Positions 41,440 to 55,123 of a DNA stretch of 64,000 nucleotides are shown here, in pieces. A program made the translations under genes and the position numbers. How positions within the stretch are numbered: position 1 is the stretch's first letter; each line of letters opens with the position of its first letter. The DNA lies in the NCBI GenBank assembly GCA_019058315.1, contig JAHPZH010000002.1, positions 64,001-128,000 of the forward strand, read 5' to 3'. A model generated the notes under the pieces. It saw only the letters and a list, made by a program, of their open reading frames with translations. It was not told the origin of the DNA and did not search any database. Source of the stretch: Candidatus Helarchaeota archaeon (GTDB taxonomy: Archaea; Asgardarchaeota; Lokiarchaeia; Helarchaeales; RDOG01).

Positions 41440-41498
41440 ATTATATCATACAACGTCTCACTCTTCTCCTCATTTGCTGTCTAGGTTACTTTCGAGCC
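41440..41498 (-). other. 3' arm of the pre-23S processing stem (pairs with 44713-44767)
   Basis: GGCTCGAAA, CAGCAAATGA and TATGATATAAT blocks occur inverted at both rRNA flanks, with a relaxed bulge-helix-bulge-like centre. Confidence 0.8.
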
Positions 41499-41499
41499 T

Positions 41500-44650
<3,151 letters not shown>

Positions 44651-44712
44651 GGCTCTACTCGTAATTACCCTATATCGATTACACTCGACAAGTATTTTCC
44701 CTGCCAATTTCT

Positions 44713-44767
44713 GGCTCGAAATTGTATTTCGCCCAGCAAATGAAAGTAAGATGTTCTATGATATAAT
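44713..44767 (-). other. 5' arm of the pre-23S processing stem within the leader
   Basis: Complementary to 41440-41498. Confidence 0.8.
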
Positions 44768-44964
44768 CCGCACTGGCTGGCGTTCTTCCCATCATCGTAC
44801 ATCCATCCCGGCCGCGTCGGCTCAAAATGTACTAGGTATGTGGGCATTACCACAGCACAGCCACACAAATTGCAATCCAATGCATTTAAACCGAGATAAA
44901 GTCAACTATATCTCGTATTAATAGATACTTATCGCATGAGACAACGGTTTCTTAAACTCAGAGG

Positions 44965-44985
44965 CGATATAAATTAAATTAATAA
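44965..44985 (-). promoter_or_regulatory. Probable TATA promoter for the stand-alone 23S transcript
   Basis: TTTATAT on the minus strand at the boundary between the GC-richer leader and AT-rich DNA. Confidence 0.45.
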
Positions 44986-45502
44986 TTTCCTTAGTCAACC
45001 AAAAATGGTATCATTCAAATTTTACCACTATTTTTCATATTTTCTTTTTATTTAAAATTTGCCTATTTTATAAACAAACCAAATTTGCATTAATAATAAA
45101 ATTCTATTCAATGATAAATAAAAGAATTAACAAGTTCATTAAAATTTCAATTTGATAAAAATAAAAAATCTTGAACCATATTATTTTACATAGAATTGAT
45201 AAAATTTAACTTAAAAAAAATAAAAATAGATATTTTTAAAGATTTGAATTTGAATAATTAGGATATTTTAGAAATTGATTTTATTAAATTATTATTAAAA
45301 AGTAACCATTAGGTCTTTAAATTTACAATTTTAAAATTATTTTAGATTTTTAACCTTAAAAATACAAAGATAAAACTTAGGATTTATGGAAAATCTAGAT
45401 TATTAAGTATTATAGTAGAAACTTTTTATCAAATATTAAAGTCAAAAGCATTTAACCGAAAAGATTATTAAAAGTTGATAATATAAATATTTTTAAGTTA
45501 AT

Positions 45503-45640
45503 AATGTATGTCGAGGTTAGAAATGTCGAAGGGTTAAGAAGACATAGACCTAAAATGAGCCCTTCTCTTGGAAGTCTACTTTTTAACCCCCTCCTCCCTA
45601 CATTCCCCTTTTACTTTTCAAGAGGAAGGGCTCACCCAAA
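45503..45640 (+). ncRNA. Candidate novel structured RNA: two hairpins with complementary loops
   Basis: TATAAATA at 45482; hairpin 1 AGGT..ATGTC/GACAT..ACCT; hairpin 2 TGAGCCCTTCTCTTG/CAAGAGGAAGGGCTCA with a 37-nt pyrimidine-rich loop. Confidence 0.55.
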
Positions 45641-45800
45641 ACTAATAAATAACTTTCAATTATACATCCTAATCATATTTACATGATTCTATTCGCGACT
45701 AGATCCATTTTAGGAATAAATCATGAATTTTTTAAACCCAATTATCGAATATTGAAAGATAAATCGGAAGTGGACGAATATAAATAATGAAAAACAGAGA

Positions 45801-46562
45801 ATGGACGAAATAATAAAACTTCTTAAAGAAAAATATACAGTAGATATCCATTTTAAGGATAATCCATTTGAAATGTTTATTCGTACTATCTTATCTCAAA
45901 ATACTAATGATAAAAATAGAGATAGAGCTTTTCAACGCATGAAAGAAGAATTTGAAGATTTAACACCTGAAAAATTAGCTAATTCGGACTTAAAAAAAAT
46001 TGAGGATGCAATAAAAGTAGCAGGATTGTATAGAGTAAAATCTGTTAGAATTCACGAGATCTCAAAATATATTATGGACAAATTTGATGGAGATATCGAT
46101 AAATTATTAACTCTTCCATTTAAAGAAGCTAGAAAAAAATTAATTGAATTAAAAGGTATTGGATATAAGACAGCAGACATAATGTTATTGTTTTATTGTA
46201 ATCATCCAACTATTCCTATTGATACACACATTACCCGAGTTTCAAAAAGGCTAGGTTTTGCGGAACAAGATGCAAAATACGAAAAAATTAGAGAAAGTTT
46301 AGAAAAACTTATTGAAACGGATATTACAGTTTATAAAGAATCCCATCTTCTACTTATTGAACTTGGTAGGGATACATGTAATGCAATAAATCCAAAATGT
46401 AAAAATTGTATCGTAGAAAGTCTATGCCCAAAAATAATAAAAAAACGAGAAAAGAAAAAGAAAAAAGTAAAGGTTAAGAGTAAAACTAAAAGAAAATCTA
46501 AAATTAAAGTAAAGAAAAAAACAAAAACTTCAACAAAGAAAACCAAAAAAACAAAAAAATAA
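45801..46562 (+). CDS. nth: Endonuclease III (HhH-GPD, 4Fe-4S) with Lys-rich C-terminal tail
   Basis: ILSQNT.D, LKGIG.KTA, PIDTH..RV..RLG, C-x6-C-x2-C-x5-C. Confidence 0.93.
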   Translation: MDEIIKLLKEKYTVDIHFKDNPFEMFIRTILSQNTNDKNRDRAFQRMKEEFEDLTPEKLANSDLKKIEDAIKVAGLYRVKSVRIHEISKYIMDKFDGDIDKLLTLPFKEARKKLIELKGIGYKTADIMLLFYCNHPTIPIDTHITRVSKRLGFAEQDAKYEKIRESLEKLIETDITVYKESHLLLIELGRDTCNAINPKCKNCIVESLCPKIIKKREKKKKKVKVKSKTKRKSKIKVKKKTKTSTKKTKKTKK

Positions 46563-55017: not shown

Positions 55018-55123
55018 TGGTGGACCGGCCGGGACTCGAACCCGGGACTTGTGGTTGAAAATAATTATATTTTCAATCTCCACATTGCGAATGTGGCGAT
55101 CATACCAACTGATCTACCGGCCC
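55018..55123 (-). tRNA. tRNA-Ala(CGC) with a variable-region intron (55049-55077, position 45/46)
   Basis: G3-U70; CCACA-TTCGCAA-TGTGG; splice motif GTGG/CCAC with AGA and AAG bulges; encoded CCA. Confidence 0.92.

What the first reader, a model, noticed from the sequence alone, without database searches (positions are those of the whole stretch)
45482..45780. Unannotated structured RNA with loop-loop complementarity and a C-rich anti-SD-like loop
Seen: TATAAATA (45482) ~22 nt before a GC-richer island. Hairpin 1 (45514-45551) carries GGGTTAAGAAG (45531-45541). Hairpin 2 (45556-45634, ~20 bp) has a 37-nt pyrimidine-rich loop containing CTTTTTAACCC (45579-45589), an 11-bp complement with one G-U, which gives a kissing/pseudoknot or switch. 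The 5' AATGTA can also pair with TACATT in that loop, flanking an exposed CCTCCTCCC. A third hairpin (45682-45725) has a TCCATTTT loop complementary to GAAGTGGA (45766-45773) just before nth. It matches no tRNA, SRP, RNase P or C/D pattern I recognise, and it is transcribed divergently from the rRNA promoter. Inference: a new ncRNA class (SD-pairing sRNA or Y-RNA-like scaffold) or a regulatory leader of nth.
Basis: partly seen in the sequence, partly recalled or inferred. Interest (0 to 1): 0.72.

Follow-up and report, generated by a model that had tools for sequence, protein, structure and literature searches.

The report
Multi-copy pyrimidine-loop small RNA family
The flagged stretch is one of about 13 copies of an undescribed small non-coding RNA gene found only in Helarchaeales-type Asgard archaea: a changeable stem holding up a long, almost invariant, unpaired C/U-rich loop whose function is still untested.

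Summary
Window 45556-45634 is a stable hairpin (z -3.6) with a 39-nt loop that contains no G. A TATA box lies about 24 nt before the predicted start.

It is not a one-off. Covariance models find 13 copies in this genome and 1-8 copies in four of six other genomes of the same order, which public titles call Candidatus Helarchaeota. About 40 metagenome contigs also carry it. It was found in 0 of 144 other Lokiarchaeia genomes, gave one marginal hit in 150 Asgard genomes, and has no Rfam match.

The loop UUUUUAACCCCCUCCUCCCUACAUUYCCYUUUU is almost invariant. All 15 stem pairs show compensatory changes (85-90% paired, against 32-51% in slid controls). G-U excess and conserved TATA boxes favour the + strand.

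- Hairpin 1 and the "kissing" pairing occur only in the closest paralogs.
- The third hairpin is at chance level.
- Neighbouring genes differ between copies, so this is not an nth leader.
- No Ro60 gene was found, so it is not a Y RNA.

The most likely mode of action is a trans-acting sRNA that uses the C/U-rich loop to pair with purine-rich, Shine-Dalgarno-like sites, as LhrC and RsaE do. A protein-binding scaffold is nearly as likely. No target or expression data could be obtained.

Other first-stage readers flagged five paralogs in this genome as isolated elements. None recognised the family.

The parts
45482..45489 (+). TATA box (TATAAATA) of the sRNA gene. The predicted transcription start is about 45512-45515.
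   Evidence: The sequence is. Paralogs carry (A/G)AGTTTAAATA-type boxes 23-24 nt before a purine start, and many f3-type members carry GGTTTAAATAG-type boxes. Homology among paralogs starts about 55 nt before the RNA, so it includes the promoter. The start site is inferred, not measured.
45508..45555 (+). 5' leader of this copy. It holds a tandem duplication (45508-45522 ATGTCGAGGTTAGAA and 45523-45540 ATGTCGAAGGGTTAAGAA) and an insertion. It is homologous to the ATGYAGGTT-A7 leader of sibling copies, that is, the P1 5' strand plus the A-rich bulge.
   Evidence: Comparison with paralogs. The pairing GGGTTAAGAAG/CTTTTTAACCC is used in the MFE. It is not conserved outside the closest paralogs.
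45556..45574 (+). P2 stem, 5' strand
   Evidence: Fold with z -3.56. There is covariation in 15 of 15 pairs across 24 and 39 distinct members.
45575..45613 (+). 39-nt unpaired pyrimidine-rich loop with no G: UCUACUUUUUAACCCCCUCCUCCCUACAUUCCCCUUUUA. It includes CCUCCU, which is identical to the last six bases of the 16S rRNA.
   Evidence: The first 38 of the 39 nt are identical in 4 copies of this genome, and the last base differs in three of them. The 28-nt core is almost invariant in other families of the order and in metagenome contigs. The 16S 3' end is GGATCACCTCCT.
45614..45634 (+). P2 stem, 3' strand (one bulged G)
45633..45648 (+). Conserved CACC(C) tail, which is the 3' strand of P1 (GGU/ACC here, GUG/CAC in f3-type members). 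The stretch shared with paralogs ends here. No clear oligo-T terminator follows in this copy.
   Evidence: Alignments. P1 is 95.6% paired on an independent alignment. Homology with paralogs ends at about 45648. No terminator-like site is found.

Best explanation
Window 45482-45648 (+) is a stand-alone gene, with its own TATA promoter, for a small non-coding RNA of about 100-135 nt. It belongs to an undescribed multi-copy family restricted to two families of a Helarchaeales-type order of Asgard archaea.

Shown:
- The RNA is a closing stem made of P2 (12-17 bp), a short P1 (GGU/ACC or GUG/CAC), an A-rich 5' bulge and, in most members outside this genome, an outer helix P0.
- The stem displays a 39-50-nt loop that contains almost no G and so cannot fold on itself.
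- The loop sequence is under very strong purifying selection, whereas the stem changes freely with compensation.

Inferred:
- The loop is the working part and acts in trans.
- The most likely mode is antisense pairing of its C-rich core (CCCCCUCCUCCCU, which contains the ribosome's own anti-Shine-Dalgarno CCUCCU) with purine-rich, Shine-Dalgarno-like stretches of mRNAs. This would mask ribosome-binding sites, as the C/U-rich sibling sRNAs of low-GC bacteria and sRNA41 of Methanosarcina do.
- The many gene copies would supply dosage, and the divergent paralogs would supply different specificities.

Odds: a real transcribed ncRNA family about 0.9; action through the loop in trans about 0.75; SD-type base pairing as the mechanism about 0.4. 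The confidence figure given for this explanation is that of the full statement, mechanism included.
For: Family and structure:
- There are 13 CM hits in this genome; 8, 6, 6 and 1 in four relatives of the same order; and 46 hits on contigs fetched by a 19-mer.
- All 15 P2 pairs carry double changes. Pairing is 89.5% and 84.8%, against 32-51% for slid controls.
- An alignment not fitted to the model still gives 78.2% paired against 35-45%, and recovers P0/P1/P2.

Strand and transcription:
- G-U/U-G cells number 22 and A-C/C-A cells 15. One search counts 9 unpaired cells at one column whose register I judge misaligned in the f3 rows (inference). If all nine are A-C, about 6 remain elsewhere.
- TATA boxes stand at a fixed distance.
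- The unit duplicated among paralogs is the promoter plus the RNA only.

Not coding: no frame is open in more than 16 of 54 members.

Loop as seed:
- It has no G and is identical or nearly so across families.
- Divergent paralogs keep the U-run / CCCUCC-type / U-run pattern.
- The genome is 30.5% GC and uses SD sites: G rises to 0.26-0.35 at -12..-8, with GGAG/GAGG/GGTG peaks.
- The 16S rRNA ends in CCUCCU.

Precedents:
- LhrC has five copies, is poor in G, and its CU-rich UCCC motifs block the SD. This motif is described as typical of low-GC bacteria (PMC4132741).
- The archaeal sRNA41 masks ribosome-binding sites in polycistronic mRNAs (PMC5867862).
Against: - No expression evidence. The only RNA runs found are contig-level metatranscriptomes. 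They cover the 23S rRNA and its leader but not this locus, which is uninformative.
- No target signal. Duplexes with translation-initiation regions are no stronger than with a reversed loop or with coding windows.
- There are only 26 sites with 10 or more contiguous complementary bases, and few lie at starts.
- No long antisense partner exists in the genome.
- Invariance of about 28-45 nt is more than SD pairing alone needs, and fits a protein platform or a multi-target hub equally well.
- Several copies lack a clear oligo-T terminator, so the 3' ends are uncertain.
Confidence: 0.4

Rival explanations
1. Protein-binding scaffold or sponge. The stem presents the invariant single-stranded C/U-rich loop as a platform for one or more RNA-binding proteins. 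Candidates are an Sm-like protein on the U-runs, a KH-type poly(C)/anti-SD-binding protein, or a lineage-specific partner. The result would be an abundant RNP or a titrator, similar in layout to Y RNAs or to CsrB-type sponges.
For: - Every base of about 28-45 nt is invariant across two taxonomic families and about 40 metagenome contigs, while the stems drift.
- P1 GUG/CAC and the A-rich bulge are also nearly invariant, as expected for a protein-recognition site.
- No RNA target signal was found.
- The high gene copy number suggests abundance.
- In the f3-type genomes one copy always lies 19-66 nt behind a gene for a protein with six zinc ribbons.
Against: - No partner protein is identified.
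- No TROVE/Ro60 gene is present.
- The zinc-ribbon protein has no detectable orthologue in this genome, and it flanks only one copy per genome.
- The divergent paralogs change the loop sequence while keeping only its composition. That fits graded base-pairing specificities better than a single protein site.
Confidence: 0.3
2. Selfish or decaying repeat (MITE- or SINE-like element) with no cellular function. The copies spread as mobile DNA, and the hairpin is its inverted repeat.
For: The element is multi-copy and restricted to one lineage. It lies in many unrelated intergenic contexts, with local clusters (three copies within 3 kb on C1, two within 1.7 kb on C11) and degenerate copies (C10, C3:1275637).
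Against: - The pattern is the reverse of a MITE. The 'inverted repeat' arms vary with compensation, and the middle is invariant.
- G-U excess points to selection on RNA.
- The shared unit is the promoter plus the RNA, with no terminal repeats, no flanking homology and no transposase nearby.
- Neighbours are housekeeping genes.
- The loop is conserved across families far beyond neutral decay.
- No copies occur in viral contigs.
Confidence: 0.07
3. Cis-acting element of neighbouring genes. It would be a leader of nth, or a 3'-UTR or terminator structure for the convergent or upstream gene.
For: - nth starts 160 nt downstream on the same strand.
- Seven of the 14 listed own-genome loci lie 7-201 nt from the 3' end of a convergent gene.
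- On the opposite strand the stem of some copies is followed by T7-T8.
- Some f3-type copies follow the zinc-ribbon gene closely, with no obvious TATA box of their own.
Against: - Neighbouring genes are unrelated from copy to copy, and orientation relative to them varies.
- Most copies have their own TATA box at the correct distance.
- The T-run on the opposite strand is absent in f3-type members, which have only AAA there.
- Nothing between 45648 and nth is conserved or structured.
Confidence: 0.06
4. DNA-level signal. The hairpin or the G-runs of the minus strand would act in single-stranded DNA, as an origin, a priming site or a G-quadruplex. Readers of other copies proposed this.
For: The minus strand carries GGGG..GGG..GG..GGGGG. 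Other first-stage notes on paralogs raised origin or priming ideas.
Against: - Stem mismatches are G-T on the + strand far more often than on the other strand, which points to RNA.
- Promoters are conserved.
- Thirteen dispersed copies among housekeeping genes do not fit an origin.
- The G-runs do not make four tracts of three or more.
Confidence: 0.03

Closest known systems
LhrC1-5 (and LhrC-like) sibling sRNAs of Listeria monocytogenes (PMC4132741)
   Same: Both are multi-copy small RNAs of a low-GC organism. Both are poor in G and have redundant CU-rich motifs (CUCCC...UUUU) exposed in loops. In LhrC these motifs pair with the G-rich Shine-Dalgarno region and block translation.
   Different: LhrC is bacterial. 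It has two stem-loops with short motifs and a Rho-independent terminator, and its targets are proven. Here there is one long stem and a single 39-50-nt loop that is invariant over about 28-45 nt. The promoter is archaeal, there is no sequence or Rfam relation, and no target is shown.
RsaE/RoxS and other UCCC/C-rich-motif sRNAs of Firmicutes (PMC6158497; Rfam RsaE)
   Same: Unpaired C-rich motifs that pair with G-rich ribosome-binding regions, conserved across a whole taxonomic group.
   Different: No match to the Rfam models. The architecture, domain of life, copy number and loop length all differ. The mechanism is not demonstrated here.
sRNA41 and sRNA162 of Methanosarcina mazei (reviewed in PMC5867862)
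   Same: These are archaeal intergenic sRNAs reported to mask ribosome-binding sites, including internal sites of polycistronic mRNAs. The best single predicted site here is an internal RBS of an ABC-transporter operon.
   Different: They are single-copy, their sequence is unrelated, and they are found in a euryarchaeon. The predicted site here is not statistically distinguishable from controls.
Y RNAs (Ro60-associated RNAs of eukaryotes and some bacteria)
   Same: About 100 nt long, with the ends paired into a long stem that holds a large pyrimidine-rich loop. Small multigene family with an upstream TATA-type promoter (own knowledge).
   Different: No TROVE/Ro60 gene is found in this 94%-complete genome, while the control genomes gave hits. 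There is no Rfam Y_RNA hit at E up to 10. The loop here is a terminal loop, not an internal one.
CCUC-rich small RNA of Hermodarchaeota noted earlier in this scan (e1-5477888; unchecked AI note)
   Same: An Asgard sRNA in which a closing stem displays several unpaired anti-SD-like CCUC motifs.
   Different: It is reported as single-copy per genome and 135-145 nt long. I did not see its sequence. My model found nothing in 150 genomes of the phylum except one marginal hit, so a relationship is untested.

Membership tests
Any Rfam family (release 15) | Score at or above the family's gathering threshold | tested here: not met
   There is no hit in 45482-45780 at gathering. At E up to 10 only noise appears: Spy490380c at 26 bits against 65, and BTnc231 at 15 bits against 80. 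An f3-type member gave the same result.
Y RNA | A Ro60 (TROVE-domain) partner encoded in the genome | tested here: not met
   PF05731 gave no match in the own genome (94% complete), while 2 control genomes gave hits.
Y RNA | Conserved Ro-binding lower stem with a bulged helix, and a match to the Y_RNA model | tested here: not met
   There is no Y_RNA hit at E up to 10. The lower stem here is GUG/CAC with an A-rich bulge. I did not compare it structurally with the Ro site.
C-rich SD-targeting sRNAs (LhrC, RsaE/RoxS type) | Unpaired C-rich (UCCC/CCUCC) motifs in loops of an sRNA from a low-GC, SD-using organism | tested here: met
   The loop is CCCCCUCCUCCCU and has no G. The genome is 30.5% GC. 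There is an SD signal at -12..-8, and the 16S rRNA ends in CCUCCU.
C-rich SD-targeting sRNAs (LhrC, RsaE/RoxS type) | Pairing with ribosome-binding sites of target mRNAs | tested here: inconclusive
   Duplex energies on 4949 start regions are no better than with a reversed loop or with coding windows. The start calls are crude and there is no conservation filter. There is no experimental test.
MITE / small mobile repeat | Conserved terminal inverted repeats with target-site duplication, with the whole unit conserved as DNA | tested here: not met
   The arms vary with compensatory changes and the centre is invariant. Homology among paralogs runs from -55 to +8, which is the promoter plus the RNA, with no terminal repeats.
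Small protein gene (ORF 45504-45686, 60 aa) | An open frame conserved among homologues | tested here: not met
   No frame is open through the element in more than 16 of 54 members. There is no Pfam hit. Loop-length differences are not multiples of three.
tRNA / tmRNA / box C/D / H/ACA guides | Cloverleaf or box motifs recognised by ARAGORN or Rfam models | tested here: not met
   ARAGORN finds only tRNA-Sec in the window. There are no Rfam guide-RNA hits.

The most novel reading that the evidence does not exclude
The family is the RNA core of an abundant RNP specific to Helarchaeales. The 39-50-nt invariant, structure-free pyrimidine loop, which carries the ribosome's own CCUCCU 3' end, would act as a decoy of the 16S rRNA tail or as a docking platform for a dedicated protein. 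It could then set global translation or ribosome-biogenesis capacity, rather than act as an ordinary gene-specific antisense sRNA. This would be an archaeal counterpart of eukaryotic pyrimidine-loop RNPs such as Y RNPs, in the lineage closest to eukaryotes.
Probability: 0.2. Interest if true: 0.75.

Novelty: new variant of a known kind. Interest (0 to 1): 0.58.

Why it matters
Almost nothing is known about regulatory RNAs of Asgard archaea, the closest prokaryotic relatives of eukaryotes.

This is a well-supported RNA gene family with clear boundaries. It has promoters, three covarying helices and about 13 copies per genome. Its loop is conserved as strongly as rRNA, which implies an important and probably abundant function in Helarchaeales.

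If the loop pairs with Shine-Dalgarno sites, this would be the first multi-copy 'sibling' anti-SD sRNA system described in archaea. If it binds a protein, it would define a new archaeal RNP.

In either case it supplies a covariance model for annotating these genomes, and a concrete RNA to look for in metatranscriptomes and enrichment cultures.

Tried and rejected
- Expression. Laying three of them plus one DNA run gave contig cover of the 23S rRNA and its leader up to about 44996, and none at 45480-45650. With contigs and low depth this says nothing.
- Long antisense partner. An ungapped G-U-tolerant scan of both genome strands found only the antisense of the family itself, plus chance hits inside coding regions.
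- Short perfect complements. Only 26 sites have 10 or more contiguous complementary bases.
- rRNA pairing. The best 23S duplex (-30.4 kcal/mol) is matched by 22 of 150 shuffled loops.
- Translation-start targeting. There is no enrichment over a reversed loop or coding windows. The top site, an internal RBS of an ABC exporter operon on C3 at about 716850, is not distinguishable from chance.
- Telomerase-like template idea. The f3 loop contains AACCCCAACCCC, but the genome has no GGGGTT-type repeats.
- Triplex targets. No extended parallel purine tracts were found.
- Ro60. Absent.
- Partner gene by synteny. The six-zinc-ribbon gene flanks one copy in each of the three f3 genomes, G003, G005 and G006, but has no detectable orthologue in this genome.
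- Viral contigs. No copies.
- Literature searches found no description of sRNAs in Helarchaeota.

Full report
**1. What is at the coordinates**

The window comes from an AT-rich archaeal genome (30.5% GC). The 23S rRNA lies on the minus strand at 41496-44654, and RNase P RNA and tRNA-Sec are nearby. Between the 23S leader and a HhH-GPD glycosylase gene (nth-like, 45801-46562) there is a GC-richer island at 45500-45650. Its GC is 0.35-0.45, against 0.08-0.23 in the flanks.

These are TATAAATA at 45482, GGGTTAAGAAG at 45531-45541, CTTTTTAACCC at 45579-45589, AATGTA/TACATT, CCTCCTCCC, and a long hairpin at 45556-45634.

- Folded alone, that hairpin (19 pairs, one bulge, 39-nt loop) is far more stable than shuffles (z -3.56).
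- The whole 151-nt stretch is not (z -1.1).
- Neither is the region of the 'third hairpin' (z +0.44).
- No Rfam family matches, even at E up to 10.
- ARAGORN finds no tRNA there.

**2. It is a member of a multi-copy family**

A BLAST of 45480-45800 against the window's own genome found that 45552-45648 recurs at seven other places. Its central 28 nt also recurs in several genomes of the same order.

Side by side, the copies show one pattern. The loop is identical or nearly so; it reads UCUACUUUUUAACCCCCUCCUCCCUACAUUCCCCUUUU followed by A or U. The flanking stems differ but stay complementary. CACC(C) follows the stem. An (A/G)AGTTTAAATA box precedes it, 23-24 nt before a purine.

A covariance model built from six copies (R1), and a second built from 24 (R2), gave this distribution:

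| Searched | Hits |
|---|---|
| Own genome | 13 |
| G003, G005, G006, G001 (same order) | 8, 6, 6, 1 |
| Third family of the order (2 genomes) | 0 |
| Other genomes of the class (144) | 0 |
| Genomes sampled across the phylum (150) | 1 marginal |

Public record titles identify the relatives as Candidatus Helarchaeota MAGs: Hel_GB_A, Meg19_1012_Bin_504, an 'uncultured archaeon', and one MAG labelled Deferrimicrobium. An exact 19-mer of the loop occurs on 40 metagenome contigs and on no viral contig. R2 confirms 46 family members on the fetched contigs.

**3. Structure and strand**

On the model-derived alignments all 15 pairs of the main stem (P2) show changes on both sides. Pairing is 89.5% (24 sequences) and 84.8% (39 distinct sequences). 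Slid controls give 32-51%, and no shuffle of 500 reaches the observed covariation score.

Those alignments are fitted to the model, so I also aligned 30 members with their flanks by MAFFT alone. RNAalifold again found P2 and part of an outer helix. I then tested a three-helix structure that I wrote out by hand:
- P0, 11 bp
- three unpaired bases on the 3' side
- P1, GUG/CAC
- an A-rich bulge on the 5' side
- P2

This structure is 78.2% paired, against 35-45% when slid, and 22 of 24 pairs have double changes. P1 and the bulge are almost invariant.

In the stems G-U/U-G cells number 22 and A-C/C-A cells 15. One search counts 9 unpaired cells at one column whose register I judge misaligned in the f3 rows (inference). 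If all nine are A-C, about 6 remain elsewhere. Together with the TATA boxes, this favours the + strand of the window.

No reading frame is open through the element in more than 16 of 54 members. It is therefore not a small-protein gene.

**4.

Homology among paralogs runs from about 55 nt before the RNA to 8 nt after it, which is the promoter plus the RNA and nothing else. For the window copy, only 45552-45648 aligns.

The leader of the window copy carries a tandem duplication (45508-45522 and 45523-45540) and an insertion.

That segment, and the ATGTAGG just before it, are complementary to the two ends of the loop in four or five closely related copies. Across the family, however, leader-loop pairing is no better than with shuffled leaders: the median z is -0.31, and 7 of 54 members reach p <= 0.05. 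A pseudoknot or switch is therefore possible for this young subfamily but is not a family feature.

Nothing downstream of 45648 is shared or structured. The genes next to the 13 copies are unrelated: a Ras-like GTPase, GNAT, a hydrolase, an SbcC-like protein, a TPP enzyme, an alcohol dehydrogenase, an M20 peptidase and nth. They are often convergent with the RNA gene. This excludes an nth leader and argues against a mobile island.

**5. Mechanism**

Two things are shown. The stem is selected only for pairing. The loop is selected base by base, and it cannot fold because it has almost no purines. The loop is therefore the functional surface and is presented single-stranded.

The organism uses Shine-Dalgarno sites: G is enriched to 0.26-0.35 at -12..-8, with GGAG/GAGG/GGTG peaks. 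Its 16S rRNA ends in GGAUCACCUCCU. The loop core CCCCCUCCUCCCU contains the same CCUCCU. Divergent paralogs change the loop but keep U-runs flanking CCCUCC-type motifs.

This is the signature of the C/U-rich, G-poor sRNAs of low-GC bacteria that mask ribosome-binding sites. LhrC1-5 is a multi-copy example (PMC4132741), and the archaeal sRNA41 acts on internal ribosome-binding sites (PMC5867862). I therefore favour trans antisense action on purine-rich sites, at about 0.4.

I could not support that computationally:
- There is no long partner.
- There is no excess of strong duplexes at start regions over controls.
- There is no specific rRNA complement.

Invariance over about 28-45 nt, and the invariant P1 and bulge, fit a protein platform nearly as well (about 0.3). 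No Ro60 gene exists. The zinc-ribbon gene that precedes one copy in each of the three f3 genomes (G003, G005, G006) has no detectable orthologue in this genome.

The MITE-like, cis-element and DNA-signal readings are each contradicted by the covariation pattern, by the promoters or by the gene contexts.

**6. Expression**

Not established. The only RNA runs found are contig-level wetland and sediment metatranscriptomes. They cover the 23S rRNA and its leader up to about 44996, which places the rRNA start near 44950-45000, about 0.5 kb from the divergent sRNA promoter. They do not cover the sRNA. A DNA run from another sediment holds two other paralogs of the family (loose ends).

**7. Novelty**

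There is no Rfam family, no paper found on Helarchaeota sRNAs, and no viral copies. Earlier first-stage notes of this scan flagged five paralogs in the same genome as isolated curiosities without recognising the family. A separate note describes a CCUC-rich sRNA in Hermodarchaeota, and its relation to this family is untested.

I class this as a new variant of a known kind, the kind being C/U-rich-loop sibling sRNAs. It differs by its domain of life, by its copy number, and by the length and invariance of the loop. The function is open.

Noticed in passing
window 41496-44654 (-) and 44655-45000: The 23S rRNA gene is not linked to a 16S gene. The only 16S 3' end found lies at the start of contig C5, about 109 kb from the 23S gene. 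Metatranscriptome contigs extend the pre-23S leader to about 44950-44996.
   Followed up: partly
window 55021-55123 (-): Rfam calls a 103-nt tRNA (55 bits) that ARAGORN does not report. It probably contains an intron.
   Followed up: no
L041:411-1478, L032:1669-2853, L037:294-1460, L072:7001-8125: In each of the three f3 genomes (G003, G005, G006), and on metagenome contigs such as L072, one sRNA copy lies 19-66 nt behind an orthologous gene of about 360-395 aa with six zinc-ribbon/DZR repeats. No orthologue was detected in the window's genome. It is a possible partner, or simply a conserved neighbourhood.
   Followed up: partly
L110:1501-1607 (-) = G198:C16:6008-6114: This is a marginal model hit (33 bits) in a 2-Mb Asgard genome of another family. 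It has the same layout: GGUG, an A-rich stretch, a 14-bp stem, and a loop with a U-run followed by CCCCCUCUCCCCCCU. It may be a distant relative or an analogue.
   Followed up: partly
G000:C1:428554-431416 and G000:C11:639416-641163: The sRNA genes form local clusters, with three copies within 3 kb and two within 1.7 kb. They are interleaved with housekeeping genes on the opposite strand.
   Followed up: partly
L108:1040-1080 (G000:C3 ~716840-716880): The internal ribosome-binding site of the second gene of an ABC exporter pair (AATGTGAGGAGGAGGGAGTGTAAATG) pairs with about 20 of 24 loop bases. It is the best predicted site, but it is not significant against controls.
   Followed up: partly
L054, L055, L057, L061, L065 (DATKTP01 contigs): A MAG titled 'Candidatus Deferrimicrobium sp.' carries eight copies of this Asgard sRNA, and the genome tool places it in the same order as the Helarchaeota MAGs. 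The public label looks wrong.
   Followed up: no
L039:700-860 (G006:C63): A truncated second copy (the 3' half of the loop and stem) directly follows a full copy. This indicates local tandem duplication.
   Followed up: no
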